This document shows, one piece after another, positions 2 to 20,652 of a DNA stretch of 20,652 bases (positions are counted from its first letter, which is position 1; every line of letters starts with the position of its first letter). Origin of the DNA: a virus. Its lineage: Duplodnaviria; Heunggongvirae; Uroviricota; Caudoviricetes. Location: positions 1-20,652 of IMG/VR virus record IMGVR_UViG_3300026512_000004; one strand, given 5' to 3'. A program made the position numbers and the translations under genes. The notes under the pieces were generated by a model. The model had not been told where the DNA came from, made no database searches, and saw nothing but the letters and a program-made list of their open reading frames with translations.

Positions 2-1372
2 GACAGTAAAAGTAACGAGGAATTCTATGATAGATTACATACTTTAGCACGTAAATTGTTCTTCTACGCAAGTTTAAAACCTATCACTGTTAACCTTGAT
101 GATTTGATGAAGGCGAGACGTAAAGTTAAGGAGTTACCTCATAATCCTATTGTAGGTAGTTATCTTGTTGAGATGATTACGGATCAAGCGTTGGAAAATA
201 TATCTGGAACCGATTTGGATATTCTGTACAAATCAGGATCACGTTTATCTCGTGAACAGTTTAGGAAAGCTTGTGTTATTGGTGGATATGTAGCAGATGT
301 ACACAATAAGGTGTTACCGAAACCTATTATGAATTCCGTAATTGAAGGGTTGCCTGAAAAAGATTTCTTTCTTGCTGCACAAGGTACACGTAAAGCGTTG
401 ATAGATAAGTCCATATGGACACCAAGGTCTGGTTATTTGGAGAGAACTTTGGTGTTAACATTGACTGCCGTAGAAATCAGTGAAGATGATTGTGGTGACG
501 AGTTTGGTCTGAAGATTAAAATACCGAGTCAGTTCGTCAAGTACTTTAAAAACAGATATTGGAGATATCCCGGAGAAACAGAATGGAGACAAGGACAACC
601 ACCTGCAGAACAAGATATAGAGTTAAGGTCACCAATCACTTGTAAAGCTGAATGGCCGAGATTATGTGCAAAATGTGCTGGTAAATTTCCGCTGAAGCAT
701 ATTGGAGTTATAGCGGCACAGTGTATTGCAGAACGTTTAACACAGTTAATTTTAAGAACCTTTCATACATCTGGAGCGGCAAGTTTAACAATTGATAAGG
801 AAGTCTTACAACTCATTAAAGAAAATATTGTTGACTGGACTCAAAAATCTATCCTTTTGAAGAAGTGTAGTAAAATCCAGCGCATCATAGATGTCACTAA
901 CCCGATACATGTAGAATATAAAGATGATGTAGTCGAATTAATTTATAGTGAACAAGTATTAGATAACGCGGACATTATTGAAAGATTGAACACATTGAAA
1001 TCGCTTTTCAGAGAGACAGAGAATCCAAATCCACCTCAAGATGTATTACTTTGGTTATTAAAAGAGTACACTAAGATTGGTGATATATTTGCGGTACTGA
1101 TTGAAGTATTACTTTCTATGTTGTATTGGTACAAAGACGGAAATCGTTATGTGCCGTTTCGCAAGCCTGCTTTAGGCAAGTTGATTATACCTTCTTTGAG
1201 GCGTATACCCGGTTTAATTTCTACATGTTTAGGCATGTTATATATGCCAAATTACAAGACTTTCTTAGAGTATTTACAAAATCCAACTAGTGTAGGCAGT
1301 ATTCATGAAATACTTTGGGAGCGCAATTTTGATTATCTGAAAGCTCTGCAAAATGAACGTACTAGAGTTTAG
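2..1372 (+). CDS. rpoC: Viral multi-subunit RNA polymerase beta'-like subunit, C-terminal part (set A); 5'-truncated by the window edge
   Basis: Frame is open from position 2 (DSKSNEEFYDRLHTLARKLFFY...), so the track start at 56 is not the true start. Motifs: KSGSRLSREQ (cf. SGARGS), bridge helix FFLAAQGTRKALIDKSIWTPRSGYLERTLV, EDDCG plus RSPITC..LCAKCAG (bacterial-type Zn site), trigger loop GVIAAQCIAERLTQLILRTFHTSG, late LIEVLLSML (cf. HIEVIVRQM). Confidence 0.93.
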   Translation, partial: DSKSNEEFYDRLHTLARKLFFYASLKPITVNLDDLMKARRKVKELPHNPIVGSYLVEMITDQALENISGTDLDILYKSGSRLSREQFRKACVIGGYVADVHNKVLPKPIMNSVIEGLPEKDFFLAAQGTRKALIDKSIWTPRSGYLERTLVLTLTAVEISEDDCGDEFGLKIKIPSQFVKYFKNRYWRYPGETEWRQGQPPAEQDIELRSPITCKAEWPRLCAKCAGKFPLKHIGVIAAQCIAERLTQLILRTFHTSGAASLTIDKEVLQLIKENIVDWTQKSILLKKCSKIQRIIDVTNPIHVEYKDDVVELIYSEQVLDNADIIERLNTLKSLFRETENPNPPQDVLLWLLKEYTKIGDIFAVLIEVLLSMLYWYKDGNRYVPFRKPALGKLIIPSLRRIPGLISTCLGMLYMPNYKTFLEYLQNPTSVGSIHEILWERNFDYLKALQNERTRV

Positions 1373-2300
1373 ACAAAAAGATTACGACAGAATTTTCACA
1401 ACATACATACCTACATTAGTAAAAATAAAATACCCGGATGCTACTAACATAAAGATTGAAAAAGAAGAAGTATGTACATATACAAGTTGGTGGTATCGGA
1501 TAAAATGTACATTTGATTGTGTGAAAGGAACAGTTGAACAAACAGTTATGATTCCTATACTTGAAAACCAGCTAATGAAGTTGCGGGGTACATATTATAT
1601 ACCAAGATATTGGCTGGTTTCTGCACCTTTAGTTCGTCGTAAAAAGACAGTCGTAATATGGTCCTGGTTGAAACCAATAATAGTAGATATTATGAAGGAT
1701 AGAGTTTATTTTCAAGTAGTTAGGGAAACAAAACCGAGCGTTAATATTGACGAGGACTTCAGTACCTTTATGAATACTATTGGTTGTTCTGATGAAGAAT
1801 GTCCTTTGCGTAGTGAATGTAGATTGACAGCGAGAAATGAGTTCAAATATGATTTTAAGATGATTAACGACATTTTCTTCGATGATTGGACATTACGAGT
1901 ATATACGGATTGGTTTCCGAATGTTGAAAAACACTGTGCCTTCCGTTACTTTGTTGAAACGGTTTTTACGGATAAGTGTACAGATTTAAATGATATGCGT
2001 CAGAAACGTTTATCCTGTTTTGAAAATTGGTTCAAAAGTTTAATACTGTTAAGCGATTGGAGTCGGACACATTTAGTAGATTTCGAGAATTTATTAGCAG
2101 TTCCAGAAGCTAATCCGTTGAGCATAATAATATTGTCTCTAAAATGTTATGAAGTTGGTTCCTCTTTGGAATCGATTAAGTTTAATGAAAGTTTTGAATA
2201 CATAATTTGTCCAGTTTCGTTATCCGATCAGGAACCGTTGAAGTATTCTACACTTTTACCTGAAGTAGAAGTTAATGAGATTGGACGTTTCTTAAAATGA
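1353..2300 (+). CDS. rpoB: RNA polymerase beta-like subunit, N-terminal part (set A), strongly reduced
   Basis: TVMIPILENQLMKLRGTYYIPRYWLVSAP matches the beta region-A motif (GDFPLMT..GTFIINGTERV.VSQL.RSP). NESFEYIICPVSLSDQEPLKYSTLL matches [25 protein letters not shown]. The N-terminus aligns with the paralogous beta from about nt 17330. ATGA overlap with the beta C-part. Confidence 0.72.
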   Translation: MNVLEFRQKDYDRIFTTYIPTLVKIKYPDATNIKIEKEEVCTYTSWWYRIKCTFDCVKGTVEQTVMIPILENQLMKLRGTYYIPRYWLVSAPLVRRKKTVVIWSWLKPIIVDIMKDRVYFQVVRETKPSVNIDEDFSTFMNTIGCSDEECPLRSECRLTARNEFKYDFKMINDIFFDDWTLRVYTDWFPNVEKHCAFRYFVETVFTDKCTDLNDMRQKRLSCFENWFKSLILLSDWSRTHLVDFENLLAVPEANPLSIIILSLKCYEVGSSLESIKFNESFEYIICPVSLSDQEPLKYSTLLPEVEVNEIGRFLK

Positions 2301-3994
2301 TAGCATTAGGGCCACCTTTTACGGCACAAACGGATACAACACGTTTACAAATGGCTACGAAACAATTTGCTCAGACTTTAGTACATGAGACCTGTGAAAT
2401 ACCTTATGTGATAACACGTGAAATGCTTGGTTTATCTTTTCCTCCTTTAGTTATACGTGCTCATAAGGATTGTGAAGTTGAGAAATATGGCAGGTTATTG
2501 TTAGTCGATGATAAAGTATATTGGGTGGAAGATTTCCTCGCGGGTACACCCTTACGTTACGTGAAAACAGGTAAAGTACATGAAGGAGAAGTTATTTGTG
2601 AATATGTAGGGTTCAAAAACGGTATTGTTACTTCTGGTTGGAACAGTGTTGTTGCTTTTCTACCATTCTTTGGATATAATTATGAAGACGCTATTGTTGT
2701 GTCAGAACGTTTTGCTAAGAAAACTGTCCACACTACTGTTGAAGAATATTTGATACCAGTATACGAAGACACCACTATCTATGAAGCTCCAGATAAAATA
2801 CATTGTGAAGGTAATATCAAATTTAGATGGTCTTCTAAGACAACTATAGATACCATTTCTGATTTAGTTGATTTTATATTCGGTAGAAGTGCAAATGATG
2901 AACTTGTAATTGAAAATGCTAAATGGATACAAATACGTACTTATAAGATAGCAAGAAAACCTAAATTGTTATCAAAAAGTACAGAAGAGATAGTTAGTAA
3001 ACTGTATAAACAATATGTTGCTCAGTTAAGAGGTGAAGTAGAAGCTGTAAGTAAGGTTTTGCCTACATTTGTTCACGATTATTTGAACAGATTGATCATC
3101 ACAATGGACGATGTCCGGATTAATGACTTGTTCCCTTATCGTAGTAAATTACAGTACATCATTCACGTAATCGCTAGATTCGACAAAGATTTAAAAGTTG
3201 GTGATAAGTTATGCAATAGGTATGCAAATAAAGGAGTTGTGTCTCTTATAATTCCAAATGAATTAACTCCAGAATATCAAGATACAGATGGATCTTGGAA
3301 GAAGATAGAAGTTTTATTAAACCCATTAGGACTTTTCGCGAGAATGAATATGGGCCAGGTCTGGGAGTTGTATATTGCTCGTATTGTTAAGAAGTTGTGG
3401 TCCGAAGGTGATGAGAAGAATTTCCAGAAACTGTGCGAGTTGCTGAAAGCACCAGAACAAGAGTTCAAACCATATTTAATAGTTGATAAAATTTCTTACT
3501 TCGATGTTGACCGTGTTTATGCATTTATCAACGAGCAATTAGGTGGAACCGTTACCAAAGTTCGATACAAGAGGGAGTTGTTGGAGTGGTTGAAAGATAA
3601 TTATGGTGCTGATTTTGATTGGCCAATAACTGGTGACGTATACGTACAAGCAAGTGTTGGTATTCAGTATATACAGAAGTTAAAACAAACTGCAGAATCT
3701 AAAATCAATGTTAGAGACTTAGGCCCGTACAGAATAATAACAAAACAGCCCACACGTGGTAAAAAGAAATCTGGTGGTTCACGTATCGGTTACATGGAAA
3801 TAGATGCGTTAATAGCACACGGTGCATTAGACACGTTAAAAGAGTTAACAACTATAAAATCTGATTGTGTAGACGAAAAGGTTAAAATGGTGAAAGATAT
3901 GGTGTCAGATAGGAAACCCGATTTGAAAAATGTCAAATCCTACACGAAGAGGACCGTTGATCACATAATGGCTGCGTTATCGGAGATGTTGTAG
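2297..3994 (+). CDS. rpoB: RNA polymerase beta-like subunit, C-terminal part (set A)
   Basis: PFTAQTDTTRLQMATKQFAQ (cf. [20 protein letters not shown]), FFGYNYEDAIVVSERF, LKVGDKLCNRYANKGVVS, LLNPLGLFARMNMGQVWE, GPYRIITKQPTRGKKKSGGSRIGYMEIDALIAHGA, ELTTIKSD. Confidence 0.96.
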   Translation: MIALGPPFTAQTDTTRLQMATKQFAQTLVHETCEIPYVITREMLGLSFPPLVIRAHKDCEVEKYGRLLLVDDKVYWVEDFLAGTPLRYVKTGKVHEGEVICEYVGFKNGIVTSGWNSVVAFLPFFGYNYEDAIVVSERFAKKTVHTTVEEYLIPVYEDTTIYEAPDKIHCEGNIKFRWSSKTTIDTISDLVDFIFGRSANDELVIENAKWIQIRTYKIARKPKLLSKSTEEIVSKLYKQYVAQLRGEVEAVSKVLPTFVHDYLNRLIITMDDVRINDLFPYRSKLQYIIHVIARFDKDLKVGDKLCNRYANKGVVSLIIPNELTPEYQDTDGSWKKIEVLLNPLGLFARMNMGQVWELYIARIVKKLWSEGDEKNFQKLCELLKAPEQEFKPYLIVDKISYFDVDRVYAFINEQLGGTVTKVRYKRELLEWLKDNYGADFDWPITGDVYVQASVGIQYIQKLKQTAESKINVRDLGPYRIITKQPTRGKKKSGGSRIGYMEIDALIAHGALDTLKELTTIKSDCVDEKVKMVKDMVSDRKPDLKNVKSYTKRTVDHIMAALSEML

Positions 3995-4046: not shown

Positions 4047-5198
4047 ATGAAACATAACGAGTATTTTATTAACCTATATCGCGGTGAGTTTAATTTATCA
4101 GGTCTCCAGGTATTACAATTGTATCGATTTCCACTACGTAAACTAGCTTCTTACGTTGTCGCTGAGTGTTCGTTGCCAACGAACTTACTCAATGCTCTTC
4201 AAGAGCTTCTGATAGACCACGAAGTGAACAATTTACAGTTTAATCTAGAAATTTGTCACATACAGAATAAAGAAAAAGTTCCATTAGTTACATGTAACTT
4301 ACTTCTTGTTCATATGGATGTTGATGTTACGTTAATCGATAAGCCTGAAACAAATAGTGTTCGTATGTACTTTGTACCATGGCATGTATATGAGATGCAA
4401 CAGAATAGTAAATTGTTCACGATATATGAAAATATGTCTGCTTTAGATGCCATAAAAGACATATTAAATAAAATGAAATCCGAATACAATTTAAAAGCTG
4501 TTAAGTTATTCACAAAAGATGCTAGTAATTTTGTTTATGAACAGATACTTGCTAGAGCCGATAACGATCTAGTTTTACCAGTACGAATTGCCGATATGTA
4601 TAAGCCAGCACATACTCAACCTATCTATTTTGTTGATTTTTTCCATTATGAAGAATCTACACCTAAACCTTCTGTTTTCTTTTTCACATTATTTAGTCGT
4701 GATTTATTTCCCACAAAAAACGTGTTAACAACATCTCTGTCTTTGACTTCCAGGCGTTTAAAATCGGTCCCGTTACACGAATTTCTAAAGGGCAACCACT
4801 ACGTCGATCTATTAAGAGATAAACCTAAAATCACTGTCAAGACACCAGATATGATATTTCAACAACCTAATAAACAAGAAGCAAAAAACAATCAAGAACT
4901 AGTAATACATACACCTGATAGTAAGATAGATGCGTTGAAACGATTTGACCAAACTAAAGAACTAGTCTTGAAGAAGCTACATAGTTTTAGTTGGTGGGAA
5001 ATTCGTAATTATGATTTTGAGATGTTGACACTGTGTCAGAGAATCAATATAGATATAGCCGATCCAGATAGTTTTAATCAATTGATTGTAGGTTTGAAAA
5101 ACGTGTTTAGACGTGCAGCACAAACGGCTGATCCTGAGAAAATACCGTATAATCACGATTACTATATATTAACATGCGATTATGTCTCAGACAGTTGA
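4047..5198 (+). CDS. Hypothetical protein, possibly a baseplate hub (T4 gp27 / Mu gp44 / VgrG-N-like)
   Basis: 383-aa ORF with RBS. The segment TIYENMSALDAIKDILNKMKSEY...FVYEQILAR...PIYFVDF recalls the hub pattern IFQNKSV.DI...IL...Y..Q..E.D..F..RL...GI.Y.F. Similarity is weak and by eye only. Confidence 0.4.
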   Translation: MKHNEYFINLYRGEFNLSGLQVLQLYRFPLRKLASYVVAECSLPTNLLNALQELLIDHEVNNLQFNLEICHIQNKEKVPLVTCNLLLVHMDVDVTLIDKPETNSVRMYFVPWHVYEMQQNSKLFTIYENMSALDAIKDILNKMKSEYNLKAVKLFTKDASNFVYEQILARADNDLVLPVRIADMYKPAHTQPIYFVDFFHYEESTPKPSVFFFTLFSRDLFPTKNVLTTSLSLTSRRLKSVPLHEFLKGNHYVDLLRDKPKITVKTPDMIFQQPNKQEAKNNQELVIHTPDSKIDALKRFDQTKELVLKKLHSFSWWEIRNYDFEMLTLCQRINIDIADPDSFNQLIVGLKNVFRRAAQTADPEKIPYNHDYYILTCDYVSDS

Positions 5199-6084
5199 TT
5201 GGATTTACTTACGACCACCAAAGTTATCGCTAATAACACCTACTAAGAAAGATGTTTTATATTTAATTGACATATGTTCTATTATACGTGGATTATATAC
5301 ACGTCGCGCAATGGAATACGAGATATACGAAGTTGCAAGTGGTAAGGAGTACCCTACTAAGTTTTTCTACGAATTGATGGATTTTTTGAAGTATATAGGG
5401 ACCATAACGCGTAATTGGAAATGTAAACCTTACTTTGTTATATTTTATGACGAAGGAGGATGTATTCAAAACAGACAATTAGACCCTGACTACAAGAAAC
5501 GAACCTTTGAGTTTGACGAATACGATAAATTACGTGCTTTATTAAGACGGCATTATTTACAACACATACCAGAATATTTTGGCCATATACAAAATGTACA
5601 GATAATTAACACAAAAGAGTACGAATGTGATTTCGTTTCACTTTGGAAAAAGAAAGATGACTTCTTTCATGTTGTCCTGAGTAACGATAAAGATCTTTTA
5701 CAAGTTATTGACGATAATACTGTTATGTTAACGCCGCAAAATAAACTGTTTACACGAGAGAATGCAACTACTAAGATACACGAAAAAGTGAAGTTGGATC
5801 CAAAATACGTTCCGTTACTTTTGGCAATGGCAGGTGATTCTGCTGATAATATTCCAGGATGTTGTCGTGGGTATGGTTACGTACGGTGTGCGAGACTCAT
5901 CGTGGAAGCCGGTATACCTCCGGACCCGTTTTCTTTCCCCCAAAGTATAGATATATTACTTAGAAGAATTGGGTTTGACACAGATCGGTTACGACTAAAT
6001 TACCAATTGACATCTTTTAGTGAACAAATGAAGAGGATTAATTGGGACAAAATTGAAACCGTAGGAGGGTTAGATGACTTTTAA
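5182..6084 (+). CDS. 5'-3' exonuclease / flap endonuclease (T4 RNase H / Pol I N-terminal-like, PIN fold)
   Basis: Acidic motifs YLIDICS, IFYDEGG..NRQLDPDYKKR, YECD, VLSNDKDLLQVI and the H3TH motif LLAMAGDSADNIPGCCRGYG. Confidence 0.92.
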   Translation: MSQTVDWIYLRPPKLSLITPTKKDVLYLIDICSIIRGLYTRRAMEYEIYEVASGKEYPTKFFYELMDFLKYIGTITRNWKCKPYFVIFYDEGGCIQNRQLDPDYKKRTFEFDEYDKLRALLRRHYLQHIPEYFGHIQNVQIINTKEYECDFVSLWKKKDDFFHVVLSNDKDLLQVIDDNTVMLTPQNKLFTRENATTKIHEKVKLDPKYVPLLLAMAGDSADNIPGCCRGYGYVRCARLIVEAGIPPDPFSFPQSIDILLRRIGFDTDRLRLNYQLTSFSEQMKRINWDKIETVGGLDDF

Positions 6085-6460: not shown

Positions 6461-7413
6461 TGCAAGTCTACGACAAAATTGATACGATAAACAGTCATCT
6501 ACAAGATATTATCGATCATAAAGAACAGGTTGCGATTAGTAATGGTAATACGTTAACCTACAATTACACGTATAATCACACACCATTAACTCAAGGTAAG
6601 ACGTATTTAAAATTCACAAAAAATGGTTCTGAAATTATAGTTGGTCCAGATACTCCGACTGATGATGATACAGGTATTATACAAACTGTCGACGTTGTAG
6701 TAAACATAGTTTCCTATTTAACCGGACAATTGGAAATAACGTTCACTACAGCACCAGATAATGGAACTCCTATTTTCGTCGTATCAGGATACACATTTGA
6801 TGATGTAGATGAGTGCATTGATACACAAAATAATTTGAACAATGTGAAATTAGTTTTACAAAATAATGAAACGAATATAACTGATAATTTTGATATGTTT
6901 TTTGGCAGTTCTAACGCTATGATTCAGACTACACAATCAGAGCAACTGGAGCAAAATTGTATTTTACAAGGGAAAACAATATCCTGTCTATATCAAGGCT
7001 ATTTTCTCGACGATCTCGTGAATTTAGTAGGCATTGACTTGGTGAACAGTTTAGATGAGCTAAATGAGAGGTTAAGCAACGTAGAACCAAGCATAAATAA
7101 TCTTCTTGACATACGTAATCAAATACTCGATTTTCTCAACACGGCAAATAAAGAAATAACGGCTAAGGTAATGGCAGCAAAGATGGGTGTTAACCACCAG
7201 GACGAGTTATTTGCGAGTTACGGAACAATTTATGAAATGAAAGGTGGACAAGATTTGTATGCAAAAATGTCAGCGTATTTTCAGGCGCAACAATTCAATA
7301 ATAAGGTTGTATCAAGTATAATAGCTGAGGCACGTGAATATTTAGATAGTAATATTGCACCATTGACAAATCAACTTAGTACAAATCTTGCGAACTTAGG
7401 TTGTAATGCCTAA
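6460..7413 (+). CDS. Hypothetical protein, probable virion/tail-associated structural protein
   Basis: N-terminal T/G/Y-rich beta-type domain (IVSYLTGQLEITFTTAPDNGTPIFV, a pattern common in tail/baseplate proteins) followed by an N/Q/L-rich helical region. Translationally coupled to the PAAR gene. Confidence 0.4.
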   Translation: MQVYDKIDTINSHLQDIIDHKEQVAISNGNTLTYNYTYNHTPLTQGKTYLKFTKNGSEIIVGPDTPTDDDTGIIQTVDVVVNIVSYLTGQLEITFTTAPDNGTPIFVVSGYTFDDVDECIDTQNNLNNVKLVLQNNETNITDNFDMFFGSSNAMIQTTQSEQLEQNCILQGKTISCLYQGYFLDDLVNLVGIDLVNSLDELNERLSNVEPSINNLLDIRNQILDFLNTANKEITAKVMAAKMGVNHQDELFASYGTIYEMKGGQDLYAKMSAYFQAQQFNNKVVSSIIAEAREYLDSNIAPLTNQLSTNLANLGCNA

Positions 7414-7705
7414 AGCAGCACGTTTGACAGATATGACGATCGGCATTTGTTGTTGTCATGGTGGATGTATACCGATGATGGGTGTCATTGTGACTAGCTC
7501 TTCGAATACAATTACCGACAACCTATTACAAGCAAGAGTCACGGATTTGGTACTAGGTTTATGTGGACATATTGGACTTATTGTTACGGGAAGCGGTGAC
7601 GTTATTACGAATAACTTACGAACTGCACGTGTTGGGGACTTAACTGCTGGCTGTCTAATAACGACTATAGTAACAGGAAGTCCAGATACAATAGTTGACG
7701 GTTGA
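7406..7705 (+). CDS. PAAR-repeat spike-tip protein (T4 gp5.4-like)
   Basis: 99 aa with three repeats KAARLTD, QARVTD and TARVGD, each preceded or followed by IVT(S/G)S..(T/V)I. Cys/His candidates for Zn binding: CCCH, CGH, GC. Confidence 0.9.
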   Translation: MPKAARLTDMTIGICCCHGGCIPMMGVIVTSSSNTITDNLLQARVTDLVLGLCGHIGLIVTGSGDVITNNLRTARVGDLTAGCLITTIVTGSPDTIVDG

Positions 7706-8403
7706 TGCAAAATTGGAATAATGTCTTAAGCTACATTAAATCGCATTTAGGAGCACCGGTTAATGAACTAGAGTTAACCGATGAACAGATAATACGATAC
7801 ATACAAGAACACACATTAGTAGAGTTTTCGAATTATGTACCCCATAAGAAATACGAAGTAATAACAAGTAGTAATCTGGTACAAGATTATCCTGTTCCAA
7901 AATACGAGATACCTACAGACGATCCGATATTGGATGTAATGGAAGTGTACTACAATAATGATTACAGTACAGGACTTGAGTCATTGGCTGCTGCACTTGG
8001 TACACGTACAACATTGCCCGCAGTGAGGCTTGCTTTAGAAGCGCAAGTAAGACTTGACATTGCTAAATACTTTGCGCCTGCTATTACCTTTGAGTTCGAA
8101 TCACCTAAGTATCTATATATAACACCTAAAGTAGACATAGCACTAGTACGTTATGGTACAGTCCATAAGAACTTAAATACTATACCGGCTGACATGTATC
8201 AACTGTTCAAACGATTGGCTTTAGCTGATATTATGATTTGGTTAGGTAGTATAAGATCCAAGTTTGAGTCGTTAGCAACACCAGTTGCTCAAGTTCAGTT
8301 AAATTGGCAGCAACTATATCAAGAGGGACAACAAATAAGAGCAGAAGTAACACAAATGTTAAATTCATTGCCACCTGACCGATTTGTAATTTGGGTAGGA
8401 TGA
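7705..8403 (+). CDS. Neck / head-completion protein, T4 gp13-like
   Basis: YIKSHLGAPVNELELTDEQI matches T4 gp13 ILRRLGAPIINVELTPDQI. The C-terminus LFKRLALADIMIWLGSIRSKF...QLNWQQLYQEGQQIRAEVTQMLNSLPPDRFVIWVG matches the gp13 C-terminal pattern ending PP....VG. The ATG at 7705 (TGATG overlap) is preferred to the TTG at 7702. Confidence 0.88.
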   Translation: MQNWNNVLSYIKSHLGAPVNELELTDEQIIRYIQEHTLVEFSNYVPHKKYEVITSSNLVQDYPVPKYEIPTDDPILDVMEVYYNNDYSTGLESLAAALGTRTTLPAVRLALEAQVRLDIAKYFAPAITFEFESPKYLYITPKVDIALVRYGTVHKNLNTIPADMYQLFKRLALADIMIWLGSIRSKFESLATPVAQVQLNWQQLYQEGQQIRAEVTQMLNSLPPDRFVIWVG

Positions 8404-12267: not shown

Positions 12268-12273
12268 ACCAAT
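12263..12273 (+). repeat. Left copy of a short direct repeat flanking the helicase gene (CGTAGAC-C-AAT)
   Basis: Contains the beta'N stop (TAG 12265-12267) and runs into the helicase ATG; matches 13734-13743. Confidence 0.5.
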
Positions 12274-13738
12274 GCCTGATTTTGGAGTAGTTTGGGGTGC
12301 ACCATTATCGACACAGTATCAACCACAACAATCTGATGCAGTGGATAATCCTTGTAAACAACTTGATCACAATCAAAAACGGTTATACGATAGGTTAAGT
12401 CGTGGATTTGATGTAATAGTTGCATGGAGCCCATCTGCTGGTAAAACGCGTCCTATTGTTTGTTGGGCATTGGAACAACTACATCCTTTTCTACAGCGTC
12501 ATCAGGTTACTGTAGCAGATCCCAGTCCTATAATTAAAAACATGATTTACGATGCTGTAAGCAAAGGTGTCATAAGACAAGTTATTTGGTTAGTTCCAAT
12601 TAAACAACTATTAGAGGGGATAGCTTCTGACTTAGCGGGATCTATATTAGATGTCATACGGATTTATTATCCTGATTATAAAAGCACAAGTTTAATACCA
12701 GGACGCGAATTTGTAGCAACTATGGGTGAAGGTCAGTATACTGGTGATTTAGACAAGTGTCCATTTGTAGTTGCCATTTATGAGTCATTTGCCGAACACA
12801 TCATTAAATATCAACATCATCCATTGTTGATTGTATTTGACGAGACACAGGAAGTTTATGTCCAAGATAATCAGCGCAAATCATTACGTAAAGCACTTGG
12901 TACTATATTACAAGGATTGAAAGCTCGTTGGAAAAATACGAGATTTGTTATGTTAACTGGTAGTTTACATTCTGCTGATATTGCGCAAGCATATGAATTC
13001 CTTACAGCTTATTTCGGCAATCAACGTAAAATACTTGCAGATTATGTTGATCAACCTAATAGGTCACATTTAATTATCATACCAGATCCACATGTACGTG
13101 ATCCTCAAACTATTAAATACTATGTAACACAGTTGAAAAAAGGTACCTGTATTATTTTGTTTTCTAAACGACTGATAGATGAGTACATGAATTGGGCTCT
13201 ATCACGATTGCCTATTGATCAATCTGTATATACGGAACGTGTGACTGTTAACGGTCAGACTTATCATGTACGTGATGTGCTTAAATTTTTACCTAAGAGA
13301 TTAGCCGAATTAGCAGTACGTCGTGTTACCTATCTTTACCGTGATCTTGACCGTGAATATCTACAGGCTTTACCTTGGATACAAGCATTATTTAGTCAGG
13401 GTATTATAAGAGTTGCATTTGCTACTGATGCTATAGGGAAAGGAGTCACACTTGATATACAGACCTTGATAATACCAACTATAAAGAAGACTGGTGGTAA
13501 ATTGTCACCTAGTGATCTAATACAGTTAGTACACAGAGCAGGTAGAGGTAAACAGCCTGTGGCAAAGATTATTTGTCATCCAGATGACTACGATGTTATT
13601 GTCAAAGCAGCGTTAGCCAATAGGGACACATTTGTAGAACCTGGTACAGTAAAACTTGATAAAATTGATACATTGTTAGTATTTTTAAGTTCAATATTTC
13701 GATCTCTTAGACAATCTAGTGACCACACATTAGCGTAG
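12272..13738 (+). CDS. Superfamily 2 (DExD/H-box, Ski2-like) helicase with two RecA domains and a short C-tail
   Basis: Motif I AWSPSAGKT, Ia LVPIKQL, II VFDETQE, III MLTGS, IV IILFSKR, V ATDAIGKGVTL, VI QLVHRAGRG. Confidence 0.93.
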   Translation: MPDFGVVWGAPLSTQYQPQQSDAVDNPCKQLDHNQKRLYDRLSRGFDVIVAWSPSAGKTRPIVCWALEQLHPFLQRHQVTVADPSPIIKNMIYDAVSKGVIRQVIWLVPIKQLLEGIASDLAGSILDVIRIYYPDYKSTSLIPGREFVATMGEGQYTGDLDKCPFVVAIYESFAEHIIKYQHHPLLIVFDETQEVYVQDNQRKSLRKALGTILQGLKARWKNTRFVMLTGSLHSADIAQAYEFLTAYFGNQRKILADYVDQPNRSHLIIIPDPHVRDPQTIKYYVTQLKKGTCIILFSKRLIDEYMNWALSRLPIDQSVYTERVTVNGQTYHVRDVLKFLPKRLAELAVRRVTYLYRDLDREYLQALPWIQALFSQGIIRVAFATDAIGKGVTLDIQTLIIPTIKKTGGKLSPSDLIQLVHRAGRGKQPVAKIICHPDDYDVIVKAALANRDTFVEPGTVKLDKIDTLLVFLSSIFRSLRQSSDHTLA

Positions 13739-15736: not shown

Positions 15737-16225
15737 ATGGCAAGTAACAAAGGTAAACAGAAGGGTAACAAATATGAACGCGATGTAGCTCGTAAACTTA
15801 GTCTCTGGATGTTTAATGATTCTGAAGCACTTTGGCGAAATAGTTCGTCTGGTGCCCGTGGTTATAAAGGCGACATAGTGCCCTACAAACCTATTCCATG
15901 GAAAAGATGGCCGTTTCTTGTTGAGGTTAAAGCAGGTTACTTAAGACAAATGCCTAAAGGTCTATCATATCCAAACATAGTAGAAGAGTGGTTGATTAAA
16001 GCATGTAACCAATTAGGTGGGCAACAAGAGTACGTCTTATTGATTATTAAGTTCCATAGATGTCGTGATGTTCTTATAACTACGAAAGCCAGTTTGATTA
16101 AAACTAGACCTTATTTTATCTTTCTACCTAATTCATCTAAAGTACGCGGTTATGTATACGACTTCGCTACTCTTCTTGCTTCACCTTTTCACAAAACTGT
16201 AAATATGAGAATACTCAAGATTTAA
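15737..16225 (+). CDS. Holliday junction resolvase, Hjc-like PD-(D/E)XK nuclease
   Basis: KQKGNKYERDVARKL, WRNSSSGARGYKGDIV and FLVEVKAG follow the Hjc pattern KG...ER...L...R...SG....D....E.K. Confidence 0.85.
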   Translation: MASNKGKQKGNKYERDVARKLSLWMFNDSEALWRNSSSGARGYKGDIVPYKPIPWKRWPFLVEVKAGYLRQMPKGLSYPNIVEEWLIKACNQLGGQQEYVLLIIKFHRCRDVLITTKASLIKTRPYFIFLPNSSKVRGYVYDFATLLASPFHKTVNMRILKI

Positions 16226-16229
16226 CGAT

Positions 16230-19200
16230 ATGGCGTTAATAAGTAAAATTCACATCAACGAACCAATCGACAGCCTTTACTTTGATCCCAACCATGCGCA
16301 TGTACTATTAGTGTTTTCAGATGCTAAACTATCCACAATAAAAGACTTGCCAATACACTGGTCACAGTGTAGGGCAACGTTAATACCACCTAGTATTAAC
16401 TACGGTCGTAGACGTGTTCTTAGTGGTCTAATTAGTAGGTATAAAAAGGAAATGCCAGAACAGAAATGGATGCTCACTTTTCCACGTCAAATTGAGAATA
16501 ATAAGTTGGTCATTTATGTTATTCATGCTAAAGACTTTGAATATGCCGATTGGATATATTGTAGATGTGGAAGTGAAAAGAAGTTTGTAGATACACTTTT
16601 TACTCGTGTACTCAATAGGTATTACGAAAGTATTAAGAGGAAGTATCCCTATGCCAAAGTACATTTTCTTTTTCATCATACAGACCCAACTAGTTCTTTA
16701 AGATCTGTTTTTGAATATTTAGCAGACAGGCCTCGTGTTTTAGAAGACTACAGAAAGTACATAACAGATGACGTGATACTTGGTGCTGTACCTAATAACA
16801 CTTTATTTGCTATTGTAGATTCTTTTGGCAGACTATCAAGACAAGCTTTGAAAACCATGTTGTTTACTACAGAAGTTGAACCCGAAGAAAAATCTACCAA
16901 ACCTATAAAAGTTAAAAACTCTTTTGTCAAGCCTATAGTTTCTAAGAGTTTACTAAAATCTGCTGTCGATGTTGCTGAAACTCCGAAAGGCAAACCTATC
17001 TACAAAGTTTCTATAACAGAATTAAAGAAAATTCTGCGTAAATATGGTATAAAAGATGAAGCTGCTATTGCTTTGGTAAAAGACGAAGTCGAAGATTATT
17101 TGAATAATGTAAAAGAAGTGAACCCAAATGATTTAGAGAGTGTTATTTTGGACGCAATTTATAGATCTGTTTATGGTACGGAGAGACCAGAAGGACAAGC
17201 TACTGACATTAAATCTTTAGTCGAAACATTGGCCGTTGAAAAGTTTGCCCGTAAATTATCCTATTCAAAGTCGCCAGCAATACCTTTAGATCCAAATGAA
17301 ATCATCGATTTGAAGGAATCTACATCTGCTTTTCGTCATGAAATAGAGTTCGAACATTGGGTTGATAAACACTTCACAGATCTTTTCAAGGCACTTGAAA
17401 CTAGACCTGATAATCCTGTTAAAGTACTTAAAATAGATCGTGAAATTATTGACGAACCTGATAACAGGTATATTAGATATACAGTTACCTTACAGAATAC
17501 TGATTGCGGTTCAAAGAAACCTTATCAAGTTGAATTAAAAGTACCCTATCCTATCAACGGTAGATACTACAGATTGAAAGGGAAACGTTATTTAATTGCT
17601 AATCAATTACACTTACGTCCTATTACTAAAACTAAGAAAAACGAAGTTCGTTTTCTGAGTGCATTCGCTACTATCACCATTAGACTTGTCAATACACGCT
17701 ATACTTTTGACGACATTGAGTTGATGTTAGATTATTTACAAAAGATTTTACCAGATAAAGTTAGAAAAGAAGATGGAGTTTGGGTCTTAGGCGATAATAA
17801 GATTTACTTAGATATTACAAGTCCCGAGATTGTTGTCAGTGAATCTAAACGTATTTATCAAGAAGGTGACACGTTTTTTGTCGAAGAAAATGGAGAAAAA
17901 AGAGAACTTCCCAAATATAAGAGTAGATCACACATATTGTTCGATTTTATTCGTAATTGGTGTATAGATACAACTGGTAAAGATATCCTGCGTCAGGGCA
18001 AAGCAGTACCTTACTTTCAAATTCACATAGCAGGCTTGAAAATGCCACTAATTATTTTCCTGGCTGAACGCATGGGACTTTTGACAGCTTTAAATAAGCT
18101 TAACATAGAGTTTCATATTGCCAAAAAGTTTGATAAAAGGTATACTGTTTCTGTTCCGCTAGAAGGCGGTAATTCTGTTTTTATTGTCGCTTCAAATACT
18201 AAAGAGGAATTTATTGTAAATGGGTTATGTGCTGTTAAAAAGATGCCTACTTTTAAAAATCCAGATGACTATCTTGAGTGGCGTAGGTTTGTGGTCGAAA
18301 GGTACGGTGACAAAATTAAATCTTTTGACGCTGCTGCCAAAAACTTCATAGATCCAATTACACGTGATTTATTACGTTTAGAGGGTAACCCGACCACTTT
18401 TCTTGATGTTATCACAGGACCGATGATCGATCGACTCGTAGATAAGAAGGCAGACGATATTTCCAATTTAGCCATCTATCGCGTGAGATTGTCTGAAATG
18501 CTTTATCACATTATTTTCACACAGATTATGCAAGCTCATTCTAGATATGCTACTAGATGTAAACAAGGTGATGAAAATGCTAGAATGGAGTTTAATTCTG
18601 ACTTTATCATTAACACGTTGTTGTCTGGTTCAGGCGTTTTGATGAACATAGAGCCGTTAAATCCTATGGAAGAAGTGATGCGTTCAAACCGTGTTATAAA
18701 GACCGGTCCTGGTGGAGTTCCCTCTAAACGTATGATTGCTTTAGCTCATAGGAATATTGACAAGTCACATATAGGTAATCTTGGTTTTGTATCCACTTCT
18801 GAATATCAGGACGTCGGTATTCAACTGTATTTAACTACTAATCCTAAAATAAGTAACAGATATGGCATTTTAGGGTTATCAAGCGTAAACAATAAGTGGG
18901 AAGTTGTCACTTGGGACGAAGCAACTATACCTTTTGTTAATGGCCTTGACACTACACGTGCTATAATGGCTACAACACATGCTAAACAGGTGTCGCCGTT
19001 GGTGTCCAGAGAGATACCTTACGTAATGACAGGTGCCGAATACGTAATACCACAGATTTCATCTGATAGATTTGTCATACGTGCCGAAAAACCAGGTGTT
19101 GTTGAGGAAGTTACGGAACATTACATCAAAGTACGTTATGACGATGGAACTGTTAGATATTACGATGTTTTTCCGAGAATTGCTAAGACAAAAAGATCAG

Positions 19201-20652
19201 CTACTGTCGTTCTTAATATGGAAACATTAAAACCAGGTGACCATTTTGAGAAGGGTGAATTGTTAGCTTGGACACAACATTTTAAGGATGGTGTCTATGC
19301 AACAGGTAAAAACCTAAAAATAGCTGTTATGAATTATCTTGGATATAACCACGAAGATGGTTATGTATTGACAGCTGACGCAGCTAGTAAATTGGAGGTT
19401 ACAACTGCTCAAGAAATAGAGGTTTTAATACCAGAAGATGCTAAAGTTTTACAGTTCATTGATAAAGTGGGATATGTAACAGCACCACAGGAAACCTTAT
19501 TGGAGTTTACGTATGACAAGTCTTTAGATGATTATATTCATGAATTAGAAGGTGAAACTGATGTAACTGATATCGATGATGATATGAGAAACAAGTTTTT
19601 CAGAATGTCTGGTAAGACTATCAAGGTTAAAAGTCCAGGTGGTCGTATTGTCGATATACGTATTTATATCAATAGTCCCAGAAAGGTAGATAAAAAGATT
19701 ATAGATGCTTGGAAAAGACTTACAGCAGTGCTTAAAGAGAAGATGACGTTGTGTTCTAAAGATGGTATTCCTGCTACCGACAACTTTGATAGCTCTGTGT
19801 TGAAAACCGGTATACATAAACACAGAGGTGTTCCTTTCAAAGGTGTAAAAATTGTCTTCTACATTAGTTCACCAAAACTAGTTGAAAAAGGTGACAAACT
19901 TGCAAACAGATACGGTGCTAAAGGTATTGTAACACATATCATAGAACCAGATTTCACACCGTATAGTGAATTTCTTGGTCCTCTGGACATCTTCATTTCT
20001 CCTTTGGGTATTTTTGGTCGTAAGAATATCGTATTTTTGAAAGAGATATATACTGGTAAAATAATGTACGTATTAAACCAACGTGTTAAAGAATGGTTGT
20101 CTACTAAAATGAAAACAAGCGAGATTGTATCACGTATTTGTGACGTTTTAAATGCTTTGGGTGCCAAGAGACAAGTTGATTCGCTTAAAAAGGAACTCAA
20201 ACAAGTTAGTAATGTGCGTAAATACTTACAAACTGTCCATATTCCATTGATAGTTCCACCACATACACAGATATCATTTAAGCAATTAGGTGAAGCAGCT
20301 AAATTACTGGGCATACCATTAGATGAACATGTTTATATTCCAGAATTAGGTGCTTGGACAAAACACAAAGTACCTGTTGGAGTATCCTACTACTACGTAT
20401 TAGAACATTATGGCGATCCAACTATAACTGCACGTGCCTCTGAGAAGGTTTCTATGTTAACAGGTCAACCTTTAAAAGGTCGTAGAAAGGGTGGTAAGGC
20501 GATTGCTATTGGTAATTTAGATGTGTATGCTATGCTATCTTGGAACGCGGATAATATACTGACAGAGTTGATGACTGTAAGATCTGATTATCCTGATGCT
20601 AAAATGCAAGTGATTCGTCAAATTATACGTGAAGGACGTGCTAATTTGCCGA
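16230..20652 (+). CDS. rpoB: RNA polymerase beta-like subunit (set B), unsplit, with ~365-aa N-terminal extension; 3'-truncated and absent from the ORF track
   Basis: ATG at 16230 (MALISKIHINEP...); I found no in-frame stop to the window end (about 1474 codons, read by hand). Motifs: LKVPYPINGRYYRLKGKRYLIANQLHLRPI, GPGGVP, HRNIDKSHIGNLGFVSTSEYQDVGI, PFVNGLDTTRAIMATTHAKQ, GKNLKIAVMNYLGYNHEDG, EKGDKLANRYGAKGIV, ISPLGIFGRKN, VLEHY, LTGQPLKGRRKGG, ELMTVRSD. Confidence 0.95.
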   Translation, partial: MALISKIHINEPIDSLYFDPNHAHVLLVFSDAKLSTIKDLPIHWSQCRATLIPPSINYGRRRVLSGLISRYKKEMPEQKWMLTFPRQIENNKLVIYVIHAKDFEYADWIYCRCGSEKKFVDTLFTRVLNRYYESIKRKYPYAKVHFLFHHTDPTSSLRSVFEYLADRPRVLEDYRKYITDDVILGAVPNNTLFAIVDSFGRLSRQALKTMLFTTEVEPEEKSTKPIKVKNSFVKPIVSKSLLKSAVDVAETPKGKPIYKVSITELKKILRKYGIKDEAAIALVKDEVEDYLNNVKEVNPNDLESVILDAIYRSVYGTERPEGQATDIKSLVETLAVEKFARKLSYSKSPAIPLDPNEIIDLKESTSAFRHEIEFEHWVDKHFTDLFKALETRPDNPVKVLKIDREIIDEPDNRYIRYTVTLQNTDCGSKKPYQVELKVPYPINGRYYRLKGKRYLIANQLHLRPITKTKKNEVRFLSAFATITIRLVNTRYTFDDIELMLDYLQKILPDKVRKEDGVWVLGDNKIYLDITSPEIVVSESKRIYQEGDTFFVEENGEKRELPKYKSRSHILFDFIRNWCIDTTGKDILRQGKAVPYFQIHIAGLKMPLIIFLAERMGLLTALNKLNIEFHIAKKFDKRYTVSVPLEGGNSVFIVASNTKEEFIVNGLCAVKKMPTFKNPDDYLEWRRFVVERYGDKIKSFDAAAKNFIDPITRDLLRLEGNPTTFLDVITGPMIDRLVDKKADDISNLAIYRVRLSEMLYHIIFTQIMQAHSRYATRCKQGDENARMEFNSDFIINTLLSGSGVLMNIEPLNPMEEVMRSNRVIKTGPGGVPSKRMIALAHRNIDKSHIGNLGFVSTSEYQDVGIQLYLTTNPKISNRYGILGLSSVNNKWEVVTWDEATIPFVNGLDTTRAIMATTHAKQVSPLVSREIPYVMTGAEYVIPQISSDRFVIRAEKPGVVEEVTEHYIKVRYDDGTVRYYDVFPRIAKTKRSATVVLNMETLKPGDHFEKGELLAWTQHFKDGVYATGKNLKIAVMNYLGYNHEDGYVLTADAASKLEVTTAQEIEVLIPEDAKVLQFIDKVGYVTAPQETLLEFTYDKSLDDYIHELEGETDVTDIDDDMRNKFFRMSGKTIKVKSPGGRIVDIRIYINSPRKVDKKIIDAWKRLTAVLKEKMTLCSKDGIPATDNFDSSVLKTGIHKHRGVPFKGVKIVFYISSPKLVEKGDKLANRYGAKGIVTHIIEPDFTPYSEFLGPLDIFISPLGIFGRKNIVFLKEIYTGKIMYVLNQRVKEWLSTKMKTSEIVSRICDVLNALGAKRQVDSLKKELKQVSNVRKYLQTVHIPLIVPPHTQISFKQLGEAAKLLGIPLDEHVYIPELGAWTKHKVPVGVSYYYVLEHYGDPTITARASEKVSMLTGQPLKGRRKGGKAIAIGNLDVYAMLSWNADNILTELMTVRSDYPDAKMQVIRQIIREGRANLP

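What the first reader, a model, noticed from the sequence alone, without database searches (positions are those of the whole stretch)
2..20652. Two paralogous multi-subunit RNA polymerases in one virus that also has T4-like tail/neck genes
The window holds two non-identical beta' C-parts (2-1372, 13744-15507) and two beta subunits (1353-3994 split; 16230->20652 unsplit). The betas share non-cellular signatures: DTTR..MAT instead of DANR..MG, GDKL.NRY instead of GDK..(G/S)RHG, and PLG.F.R. This suggests duplication within a viral lineage. A virion plus non-virion RNAP pair is established for phiKZ/AR9-type jumbo phages, but here it co-occurs with a T4 gp13-like neck and a PAAR tip, and the subunit splits look different. 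This could be a distinct host-independent two-RNAP transcription system. Which subunits pair with which, and which set is packaged, is inferred from clustering only.
Basis: partly seen in the sequence, partly recalled or inferred. Interest (0 to 1): 0.9.

Follow-up and report, generated by a model that had tools for sequence, protein, structure and literature searches.

The report
Jumbo phage virion and non-virion polymerases
This fragment of an uncultured giant phage does carry two sets of cell-type RNA polymerase genes, but they are the already known "packaged" and "made-after-infection" polymerase pair of phiKZ/AR9-type jumbo phages, here in a very divergent environmental lineage whose genes are cut into fewer pieces.

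Summary
The window carries two paralogous multisubunit RNAP gene sets.

- Set A: beta'C, cut by the contig end, at 2-1372; betaN at 1353-2300; betaC at 2297-3994.
- Set B: beta'N with GDFDGD at 10981-12267; an SF2 helicase; beta'C at 13744-15507; an unsplit 1497-aa beta at 16230-20723.

The reading as a distinct system is not supported.

- Set B matches the virion RNAP of AR9/phiKZ by best hits, by beta' and beta trees, by the shared N-terminal beta extension and by the virion-protein tail on beta'C.
- Set A matches the non-virion RNAP. Best hits agree, and its beta is split at about the same place as in AR9.
- A duplication inside this lineage is disfavoured (AU p 0.052 and 0.032).
- The contig shares about 28 genes with AR9, including the "neck" protein, sheath, major capsid protein and portal. 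The tail genes are therefore not unusual company.
- The missing second catalytic beta'N is an edge effect. Relatives, including complete 285-315 kb genomes, carry NADFDGD about 135 residues upstream of where the window ORF begins.

New here is a deep, uncultured clade whose vRNAP has three polypeptides instead of five or more, encoded in one cluster with a helicase and a PDDEXK protein.

The scan has noted AR9-like uncultured relatives before, on other DNA.

The parts
2..1372 (+). Set A (non-virion type) beta' C-terminal part. It is a partial gene cut by the contig end; about 186 N-terminal residues are missing, including the NADFDGD motif.
   Evidence: Pfam Rpb1_5, 1.3e-21. The ORF is open at its 5' end. 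It aligns to residues ~187-634 of 654-662-aa relatives, or ~550-1006 of unsplit ~1017-1037-aa beta'. Those relatives carry NADFDGD at residue ~52 or ~423. Best known hit is AR9 non-virion beta'C, 7.6e-20, also PDB 7s00_D.
1353..2300 (+). Set A beta N-terminal subunit (315 aa). It overlaps the previous gene by 20 nt.
   Evidence: No Pfam or PHROG hit. The family profile matches AR9 non-virion betaN (83356-84846) at E 2.4e-14 and residues ~79-391 of unsplit 1018-aa betas. Homologues lie next to betaC in relatives.
2297..3994 (+). Set A beta C-terminal subunit (565 aa) with the catalytic barrel. It overlaps betaN by 4 nt.
   Evidence: Pfam Rpb2_6, 7.5e-36, and Rpb2_7. DTTRLQMAT and GDKLCNRYANKG are present. 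Best known hit is AR9 non-virion betaC, 1.7e-13. It falls in a 100/100 clade with environmental relatives.
4047..5198 (+). Baseplate central hub protein (T4 gp27 / VgrG / Mu gp44 fold). It is not an RNAP subunit.
   Evidence: AlphaFold2 with 91 sequences gave pLDDT 91.9 and pTM 0.90. Foldseek against the PDB gave E 2.9e-13 to 1e-10 for contractile-injection and phage baseplate hubs, including the phiKZ baseplate 9xph_A (TMq 0.59).
5182..6084 (+). 5'-3' exonuclease / flap nuclease (RNase H-like).
   Evidence: Pfam 5_3_exonuc_N, 2e-07, and 5_3_exonuc, 0.0016, both below their cut-offs; PHROG exonuclease, 2.3e-07.
7406..7705 (+). PAAR spike-tip protein.
   Evidence: Pfam PAAR_motif, 5.5e-13.
7702..8403 (+). 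Virion structural protein, neck/adaptor-like. It is a homologue of AR9 gp111.
   Evidence: phrog_18911, 2.8e-26, and phrog_211 head-tail adaptor, 2.9e-10. AR9 87491-88183 matches at E 4.9e-19 and is annotated as a virion structural protein.
10981..12267 (+). Set B (virion type) beta' N-terminal subunit (428 aa) with the catalytic GDFDGD.
   Evidence: Pfam Rpb1_2, 4e-18. The motif is at residue 370. Best known hits are AR9 virion beta'N, 2.5e-25, and phiKZ 187786-189258, 1.2e-16, against AR9 non-virion beta'N, 2.7e-13.
12272..13738 (+). SF2 helicase inside the set B cluster.
   Evidence: Pfam DEAD, 7.2e-07, and Helicase_C, 7.1e-05. Homologues lie directly after virion-type beta'N in G001, G002 and G005. 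Group 1 jumbo phages are reported to keep an SF2 helicase next to RNAP genes (PMC7824862).
13744..15507 (+). Set B beta' C-terminal subunit (587 aa). It fuses the 'middle' and 'C-terminal' beta' pieces of known virion RNAPs.
   Evidence: phrog_2962, 6.6e-36. Residues 373-578 match phrog_2926 'virion structural protein', 2.1e-06. AR9 virion mid-beta' matches at 2.4e-24, and residues 453-566 match AR9 gp124, a virion structural protein. In G005 the same protein is split into 366 + 218 aa. Trees.
15737..16225 (+). PDDEXK-family small protein, conserved beside the virion-type beta gene.
   Evidence: Pfam PDDEXK_15, 2.9e-09. Homologues lie directly next to the virion-type beta or beta'C in G001, G002 and G005.
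16230..20652 (+). Set B beta subunit, unsplit. The ORF runs to contig base 20723 (1497 aa) and includes the N-terminal extension typical of virion RNAP betas.
   Evidence: Pfam Rpb2_6, 4.2e-25. phrog_3148, 5.2e-54. phiKZ 181802-186157 (1451 aa) matches at 2.8e-20. The profile aligns AR9 virion N-beta residues 12-520 to the extension, and the AR9 virion beta exons to the rest. AR9 annotation reads 'virion RNAP subunit'. Tree support is 93/92 and 95/95*.

Best explanation
The window is the 5' end of a 122-kb fragment, about half a genome, of an uncultured jumbo myovirus. The phage belongs to the msRNAP-encoding 'Group 1' supergroup (phiKZ, AR9/PBS1, phiR1-37). Its two RNAP gene sets are the counterparts of the two known enzymes of that group.

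Set B is the virion RNAP. It comprises beta'N, beta'C fused to the small C-terminal piece, and an unsplit 1497-aa beta. These genes sit in one cluster with an SF2 helicase and a PDDEXK protein. By inference, the enzyme is packaged in the capsid, injected with the DNA and transcribes the early genes.

Set A is the non-virion RNAP. It comprises beta' (cut by the contig end), betaN and betaC, with overlapping gene ends that suggest coupled translation. By inference, it is made after infection and transcribes the middle and late genes.

Neither enzyme has an alpha or sigma partner encoded by the phage, so transcription is probably independent of the host polymerase.

Shown here: the homology, the assignment of each set to its type, the split pattern, and its conservation in relatives.

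Inferred from AR9/phiKZ biology: packaging, timing and host independence.
For: Domain and motif content.

Set B matches the virion type:
- Best hits are beta'N to AR9 virion beta'N 2.5e-25 and phiKZ 1.2e-16; beta'C to AR9 virion mid-beta' 2.4e-24; beta to the phiKZ 1451-aa subunit 2.8e-20.
- AR9 records annotate these matches as virion RNAP subunits or virion structural protein.
- Beta' tree: set B groups with AR9 and phiKZ virion subunits at 89/91. Without phiKZ the support is 94/88, inside a starred 95/93 clade.
- Beta tree: set B groups with AR9 virion beta at 93/92, starred 95/95.
- The N-terminal beta extension is shared with AR9 virion N-beta.

Set A matches the non-virion type:
- Best hits are AR9 non-virion beta'C 7.6e-20 (against 1.4e-05 for the virion type), betaC 1.7e-13 (against 1.1e-06), and betaN profile 2.4e-14.
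- The betaN/betaC break is at about the same place as in AR9: both proteins align nearly end to end.

A clade of only A and B is disfavoured, AU p 0.052 and 0.032.

Relatives G001 (314.8 kb, terminal repeats, 100% complete), G002 and G005 carry both sets with the same layout and two DFDGD-bearing genes each.

The contig shares about 28 genes with AR9, including virion genes.

No sigma region 2 and no alpha subunit were found in G000, G001 or G002.

Literature on the group: PMC7598289 and PMC7824862.
Against: - Set A's position relative to the AR9/phiKZ non-virion subunits is unresolved in both trees. It sits in a polytomy, and AR9 and phiKZ are very long branches. The A-plus-non-virion clade is only 'not rejected' (p 0.21).
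- The AU test on beta' is borderline (0.052).
- No homologue of the fifth non-virion subunit (AR9 gp226 / phiKZ gp68) was found.
- The helicase shows no sequence match to AR9 or phiKZ proteins.
- The set A catalytic motif is not in the contig, so it rests on relatives.
- Packaging, timing and rifampicin resistance are untested.
- No promoter motifs could be found.
Confidence: 0.82

Rival explanations
1. Lineage-specific duplication. The two sets arose by duplication inside this phage lineage and form a two-RNAP system independent of the phiKZ/AR9 pair.
For: Both betas share non-cellular signatures (DTTR..MAT, GDKL.NRY). In the beta tree the set A clade is the weakly supported sister (83/92) of the virion-type clade rather than of AR9 non-virion beta. 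AU on beta' does not quite reject the hypothesis (p 0.052).
Against: Set B is closer to the AR9 and phiKZ virion subunits than to set A in both trees. AU on beta rejects an A+B-only clade (p 0.032). The type-specific characters are shared with AR9: the N-terminal beta extension, the virion-protein tail on beta'C, and the break in the non-virion beta. GDK..NRY/NRH also occurs in other environmental clades.
Confidence: 0.07
2. Set A is an incomplete or decaying remnant with no catalytic beta'N. Only one phage RNAP is functional.
For: Only one Rpb1_2 (DFDGD) match exists in the 122-kb contig. No second beta'N was found by phmmer.
Against: The set A beta' ORF is open to the first base of the contig. 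It aligns from residue ~187 of relatives that carry NADFDGD at residue ~52. The contig is only about 51% of a genome. The set A genes are intact, keep their catalytic motifs and have overlapping ends. Every near-complete relative has two DFDGD genes.
Confidence: 0.03
3. Assembly chimera. The two RNAP sets come from two different phages joined in one contig.
For: The sequence is a metagenome-derived, linear, incomplete contig.
Against: GC is uniform at 0.34-0.39 and all window genes lie on one strand. Relatives carry both sets in single genomes, one of them closed by terminal repeats. The gene content between the sets (hub, PAAR, neck, nuclease) recurs near the RNAP genes in relatives.
Confidence: 0.02
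4. Roles reversed or altered. Set A is packaged, or both are made only after infection while early genes use the host polymerase.
For: Packaging is inferred only by orthology. Set A lies next to baseplate, PAAR and neck genes. Some msRNAP phages depend partly on host RNAP (title of a reference cited in PMC13282480).
Against: Set B's beta'C carries the domain that is a separate virion structural protein in AR9 and in PHROG 2926. Orthologues of set B are the ones found in AR9 and phiKZ virions.
Confidence: 0.06

Closest known systems
Bacillus phage AR9/PBS1 virion and non-virion multisubunit RNAPs (Lavysh 2016; Sokolova 2017, 2020, PMC7598289; non-virion structure PDB 7S00/7UM0)
   Same: - Two paralogous beta/beta' sets, with no alpha, omega or sigma.
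- Set A and set B each hit the matching AR9 enzyme best.
- The non-virion beta is broken at about the same place.
- The virion beta has the same N-terminal extension.
- The virion beta' is broken after the catalytic barrel.
- About 28 shared genes, including major capsid protein, portal-like protein, sheath, protease, TerL and the neck-like protein.
- No chimallin was detected.
   Different: - Only 21-26% identity.
- The virion beta is one 1497-aa ORF here. In AR9 it is two genes, one with six exons and one fused to an HD domain.
- Virion beta'C and the small C-terminal piece (AR9 gp124) are fused here.
- The virion RNAP genes are clustered with a helicase and a PDDEXK protein, whereas in AR9 they are dispersed.
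- No gp226 homologue was found.
- The non-virion beta' of relatives is unsplit or broken inside the catalytic barrel region.
Pseudomonas phage phiKZ virion RNAP (gp178, gp149, gp180, gp80 by my recollection of Ceyssens 2014) and non-virion RNAP (gp55, gp71-73, gp74, gp123, gp68; PDB 7OGP)
   Same: The two-enzyme strategy is the same. Set B beta matches the 1451-aa phiKZ subunit (2.8e-20), set B beta'N matches phiKZ 187786-189258 (1.2e-16), and set A beta'C matches phiKZ 66626-68659 (3e-09).
   Different: It is much more distant than AR9, with only about 9 shared genes by phmmer. No chimallin or PhuZ homologue was detected here or in the complete relative G001. The virion RNAP has five polypeptides in phiKZ-type phages against three here.
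Salmonella phage Arash virion-packaged RNAP (PMC10585845)
   Same: A multisubunit-type RNAP and a helicase encoded next to it were both found abundantly in virions by mass spectrometry. It is a myovirus.
   Different: - Only one RNAP set was detected (one Rpb2_6 match).
- Its gp206 appears to be a beta plus beta'N fusion.
- It encodes sigma factors.
- Its proteins are only remotely similar. The beta core aligns at 23% identity, and beta'N, helicase and beta'C show no significant pairwise match.
- It branches at the base of the phage RNAP clade.

Membership tests
Group 1 jumbo phages with virion + non-virion multisubunit RNAPs (phiKZ/AR9 type) | Two paralogous sets of beta- and beta'-like genes in one genome | tested here: met
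   Pfam and PHROG hits. Paralogy E 1e-19 and 1e-27. Both sets occur in the complete relatives.
Group 1 jumbo phages with virion + non-virion multisubunit RNAPs (phiKZ/AR9 type) | One set orthologous to the virion RNAP | tested here: met
   Best hits. Beta' tree 89/91 and 94/88. Beta tree 93/92 and 95/95*. Shared N-terminal extension and virion-protein tail.
Group 1 jumbo phages with virion + non-virion multisubunit RNAPs (phiKZ/AR9 type) | Other set orthologous to the non-virion RNAP | tested here: inconclusive
   Best hits and the shared break in beta favour it. The trees leave it in a polytomy, and the joint clade is not rejected (p 0.21).
Group 1 jumbo phages with virion + non-virion multisubunit RNAPs (phiKZ/AR9 type) | No phage-encoded alpha, omega or sigma subunit | tested here: met
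   No Sigma70_r2, RNA_pol_L or RNA_pol_A_bac match in G000, G001 or G002, while the control genomes match. Omega was not tested.
Group 1 jumbo phages with virion + non-virion multisubunit RNAPs (phiKZ/AR9 type) | Virion RNAP core made of five or more polypeptides (beta' in three, beta in two or three) | tested here: not met
   Here there are three: beta'N 428 aa, beta'C 587 aa (two pieces fused) and beta 1497 aa unsplit. This feature describes the known members rather than the mechanism.
Group 1 jumbo phages with virion + non-virion multisubunit RNAPs (phiKZ/AR9 type) | Fifth, non-homologous non-virion subunit (phiKZ gp68 / AR9 gp226) | tested here: inconclusive
   phmmer and jackhmmer with AR9 gp226 find nothing, not even phiKZ gp68. 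Half the genome is missing. The candidate at 4047-5198 proved to be a baseplate hub.
Group 1 jumbo phages with virion + non-virion multisubunit RNAPs (phiKZ/AR9 type) | Group 1 core genes: divergent split family B DNA polymerase, DnaB-like helicase, phosphoesterase, RNase H-type nuclease, SF2 helicase near RNAP genes, phiKZ/AR9-type capsid | tested here: met
DnaB-like helicase, phosphoesterase, TerL and sheath by PHROGs. Major capsid and portal-like proteins link to AR9 and phiKZ by jackhmmer. Flap nuclease. SF2 helicase in the cluster. DNA polymerase pieces hit AR9.
Group 1 jumbo phages with virion + non-virion multisubunit RNAPs (phiKZ/AR9 type) | Virion RNAP physically present in particles; infection resistant to rifampicin | not testable with these tools
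   Needs an isolate, or particle proteomics.
Chimalliviridae (nucleus-forming phages) | Chimallin (phiKZ gp54) homologue | tested here: not met
   phmmer with phiKZ gp54 and PhuZ gave no hit in the contig, in complete G001 or in the fetched parts of the other relatives. This is a single-sequence search with low sensitivity, and the contig is half a genome.

The most novel reading that the evidence does not exclude
The window's clade has an unsplit virion beta. A sister environmental clade (G003/G004, L053/L055) has both paralogues with unsplit beta and beta'. These forms sit inside the phage RNAP tree next to the fragmented AR9/phiKZ enzymes. The most novel reading is that the ancestral jumbo-phage RNAPs, both virion and non-virion, had whole beta and beta' genes, and that the famous fragmentation arose later and repeatedly. 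That would argue against the proposal that the split phage enzymes are relics of a pre-cellular multi-piece polymerase. It would also offer a three-gene virion RNAP, with its helicase and PDDEXK neighbours, as a far simpler enzyme to reconstitute.
Probability: 0.4. Interest if true: 0.55.

Novelty: new variant of a known kind. Interest (0 to 1): 0.33.

Why it matters
The two-polymerase strategy is well known for phiKZ- and AR9-type jumbo phages, so the headline claim is not new.

Three points have some value.

1. A deep, uncultured, apparently chimallin-free branch of that supergroup exists. Its nearest proteins among 5.8 billion are only 30-40% identical. The co-occurring hub protein family has at least 161 clusters at 50% identity.
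2. The number and position of gene breaks in these polymerases vary widely between lineages. This bears on whether the splits are ancient or derived.
3. The virion enzyme here needs only three genes, which lie in one cluster. No virion RNAP of this group has been reconstituted or solved, as far as the papers I read say. A three-gene version could make that easier.

Tried and rejected
1. I proposed that 4047-5198 is the fifth non-virion subunit (gp68/gp226-like). It follows betaC and is conserved near the non-virion genes in relatives. A shallow fold was uninformative (pLDDT 46.5). A deep one (pLDDT 91.9) is a gp27/VgrG-type baseplate hub. Rejected.
2. Salmonella phage Arash looked like a match for the set B layout (RNAP gene, then helicase, then 'structural protein'). 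Pairwise comparisons show no significant match for three of the four proteins, and a different beta plus beta'N fusion. It is only a distant analogue.
3. Complex prediction of set A betaC with betaN gave no verdict. This is neither support nor evidence against.
4. A k-mer search of 45 upstream regions for promoter motifs found only the Shine-Dalgarno sequence AAAGGAGGT. No early or late promoter classes could be defined.
5. AR9 gp226 searched by phmmer and jackhmmer: nothing.
6. The profile of the hub family against PDB sequences: nothing.
7. Megablast of the window against cultured phages: no match. A single-protein scan of IMG/VR with set A beta'C: nothing. Only an alignment-based scan found relatives.
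8. Chimallin and PhuZ by phmmer: none.
9. The helicase by jackhmmer against AR9 and phiKZ: no link.

Full report
WHAT IS THERE

The window is bases 1-20652 of a 122,127-bp linear IMG/VR viral contig that CheckV rates about 51% complete. All long ORFs lie on the + strand and GC is even at 0.34-0.39.

Pfam and PHROG scans identify two groups of multisubunit-RNAP genes.

- Set A:
  - 2-1372: Rpb1_5, beta' C-terminal part. The ORF is open at the contig's first base.
  - 1353-2300: no database hit.
  - 2297-3994: Rpb2_6 and Rpb2_7, beta C-terminal part.
- Set B:
  - 10981-12267: Rpb1_2, beta' N-terminal part, with GDFDGD at residue 370.
  - 12272-13738: SF2 helicase.
  - 13744-15507: beta' C-terminal part.
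  - 15737-16225: PDDEXK_15.
  - 16230-20723: one 1497-aa beta. It runs 71 bases past the window.

The paralogues recognise each other inside the contig, at E 1.4e-19 for beta'C and 1.2e-27 for beta.

THE PIECE WITHOUT A HIT

A profile built from 1353-2300 and its homologues in related contigs gives two matches.

- It matches AR9 83356-84846, the non-virion beta N-terminal subunit, at E 2.4e-14.
- It matches residues ~79-391 of unsplit 1018-aa phage betas.

This ORF is therefore the set A betaN.

Both AR9 proteins align nearly end to end with the window's betaN and betaC. The break in set A's beta is thus at about the same place as in the AR9 non-virion enzyme.

WHICH KNOWN ENZYMES THE SETS MATCH

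I fetched the whole phiKZ and AR9 genomes and compared ORFs.

Set A:
- beta'C hits AR9 non-virion beta'C at 7.6e-20, against 1.4e-05 for the virion counterpart.
- betaC hits AR9 non-virion betaC at 1.7e-13, against 1.1e-06.

Set B:
- beta'N hits AR9 virion beta'N at 2.5e-25, and phiKZ 187786-189258 at 1.2e-16.
- beta'C hits AR9 virion middle beta' at 2.4e-24.
- Residues 453-566 of beta'C hit AR9 gp124, a 248-aa 'virion structural protein'. The same region matches PHROG 2926, 'virion structural protein'.
- beta hits the 1451-aa phiKZ subunit at 2.8e-20.

The AR9 record labels the matched beta genes 'virion RNAP subunit'.

The first ~590 residues of set B beta were flagged elsewhere in this scan as a novel extension. 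They align to residues 12-520 of the AR9 virion N-beta. The extension is therefore a hallmark of the virion-type enzyme and not new.

TREES

Beta' C-part, 30 rows, 527 columns:
- Phage RNAPs are separated from the bacterial beta' rows at 100/98.
- The set B clade joins the AR9 and phiKZ virion subunits at 89/91.
- The set A clade (100/100) sits in a polytomy with the AR9/phiKZ non-virion pair.
- Dropping phiKZ keeps AR9 virion beta' with set B, at 94/88 inside a starred 95/93 clade. The grouping is therefore not an attraction between two long branches.

Beta C-part, 28 rows, 618 columns, with the AR9 virion beta assembled from its exon matches:
- Set B joins AR9 virion beta at 93/92, starred 95/95 with a second environmental clade.

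Forcing sets A and B alone into one clade costs 17.2 lnL (AU p 0.052) and 12.0 lnL (AU p 0.032).

Set A joined with the known non-virion subunits is not rejected (p 0.21). Orthology of set B to virion RNAPs is reasonably shown. For set A it rests on best hits and on the shared break, and the trees do not resolve it.

RELATIVES AND THE 'MISSING' CATALYTIC PIECE

The nearest proteins among 5.8 billion are only 30-40% identical and unnamed.

An alignment-based scan of IMG/VR found related contigs. They include G001 (314,837 bp, terminal repeats, 100% complete), G002 (285,572 bp, 95%) and G005 (106 kb).

Each relative has two DFDGD-bearing genes and two beta genes, and each shows the window's layout.
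- Virion type: a beta'N of 425-433 aa, followed at once by the helicase. A beta'C of about 595 aa, which G005 splits into 366 + 218 aa. A PDDEXK gene, and an unsplit beta of about 1545 aa.
- Non-virion type: betaN of about 375-400 aa and betaC of about 650 aa. The beta' is either whole (~1017-1037 aa) or split as 392 + ~660 aa.

The window's ORF 2-1372 aligns from residue ~187 of the ~660-aa proteins. Those proteins carry NADFDGD at residue ~52.

The absence of a second catalytic motif in the contig is therefore an edge effect, not decay. These complete genomes also argue against a chimeric contig.

THE REST OF THE PHAGE

The contig shares about 28 proteins with AR9 and about 9 with phiKZ by simple phmmer.

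The shared proteins include the tail sheath, tube, prohead protease, TerL pieces, DNA polymerase pieces and a DnaB-like helicase.

They also include the 'neck' protein at 7702-8403. It matches AR9 gp111, a virion structural protein, at E 4.9e-19.

The major capsid and portal-like proteins link to AR9 and phiKZ by jackhmmer.

No sigma region 2 or alpha subunit is encoded in the contig or in G001 or G002.

No chimallin or PhuZ homologue was seen, though the search was a weak one.

This profile matches the published definition of Group 1 jumbo phages (PMC7824862; PMC7598289):
- two multisubunit RNAPs;
- a divergent split family B polymerase;
- a divergent DnaB;
- RNase H-type nucleases;
- an SF2 helicase kept next to RNAP genes.

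The phage resembles the chimallin-less members, PBS1/AR9, phiR1-37 and PALS_2. The tail and neck genes are therefore expected company, not an odd combination.

WHAT DIFFERS FROM THE KNOWN MEMBERS

Published virion RNAPs have at least five polypeptides (PMC7598289), and Iyer et al. count three for the beta cognate. Here there are three in all. Beta is whole, and the small C-terminal beta' piece is fused to beta'C.

The three genes lie within 10 kb together with the helicase and a PDDEXK protein, and this cluster is conserved in G001, G002 and G005. In AR9 and phiKZ the subunit genes are scattered.

In relatives the non-virion beta' is whole or broken inside the Rpb1_2 region, rather than after it. 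A second environmental clade (G003, G004, L053, L055) has whole beta and beta' in both paralogues.

This variety of break points is the only part of the finding that goes beyond what is described.

A HYPOTHESIS OF MY OWN THAT FAILED

The 383-aa protein after betaC (4047-5198) is conserved near the non-virion genes in relatives. I suspected it was the fifth subunit.

Its family has at least 161 clusters at 50% identity. With 91 sequences it folds at pLDDT 91.9. The fold is a gp27/VgrG-type baseplate hub, with the phiKZ baseplate among the best matches.

No homologue of AR9 gp226 was found.

HOW IT MOST LIKELY WORKS

These steps are inferred from AR9/phiKZ biology.

1. Set B enzyme is packaged, perhaps with the helicase. 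phiKZ and Arash both pack a helicase (PMC10585845).
2. It is injected with the DNA and transcribes early genes, including set A.
3. Set A enzyme then transcribes the middle and late genes, including set B and the virion genes.

I could not find promoter motifs to support this.

VERDICT

The finding is a real and correctly located observation of a known kind of system, in a new and very divergent uncultured lineage with a simpler pattern of gene splits. Earlier notes of this scan describe AR9-like uncultured relatives on other DNA. Interest is modest.

Noticed in passing
window 4047-5198: A confidently folded gp27/VgrG-type baseplate hub with no Pfam or PHROG hit. Its family has at least 161 clusters (at 50% identity) in metagenomes. 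In relatives it lies within a few kb of the non-virion RNAP genes.
   Followed up: yes
window 15737-16225; G001 782-1285; G002 182559-183068; G005 105543-106064: A small PDDEXK-family protein is conserved directly beside the virion-type beta gene in every member of the clade examined. AR9 instead fuses an HD hydrolase to its virion C-beta. A nuclease-like partner of virion RNAPs may be a recurring theme.
   Followed up: partly
window 12272-13738: An SF2 helicase always follows the virion-type beta'N in this clade. It is 488 aa here but 622-647 aa in relatives, so the window copy lacks an internal or N-terminal segment. It has no sequence link to AR9 or phiKZ proteins.
   Followed up: partly
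G003/G004 (L081-L085), L053, L055: A second environmental clade of jumbo phages carries two RNAP paralogues in which both beta (~930-1510 aa) and beta' (~900-980 aa) are unsplit.
   Followed up: partly
G002 195213-197664 and 238824-239117: In relative G002 the virion-type beta'N is in two ORFs (347 + 74 aa) about 1.2 kb apart. The Rpb1_2 match in its non-virion beta' contains one in-frame TGA. This suggests an intron, a homing element or a sequencing error.
   Followed up: no
L014 (Salmonella phage Arash, OQ632216.1) 10465-15042: Arash gp206, annotated as a beta subunit, has the beta core at residues ~350-975 and a beta'N-like catalytic region near residues 1393-1462. It appears to be a beta plus beta'N fusion. 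Only one Rpb2_6 match exists in that genome, which also encodes sigma factors.
   Followed up: partly
whole contig, 45 upstream regions: A very strong Shine-Dalgarno sequence (AAAGGAGGT) is the only enriched upstream word. With a GC of about 36%, this argues against a Bacteroidota host.
   Followed up: no
window 9841-10977: A 378-aa protein just upstream of the virion beta'N has 436-440-aa homologues in G001, G002 and G005 but no Pfam hit. Another first-reader note calls it DpdA/TGT-like. I did not test that.
   Followed up: no
window 15437-15673: A 78-aa ORF overlaps the last 71 nt of set B beta'C in another frame. No family hit. It may be spurious.
   Followed up: no
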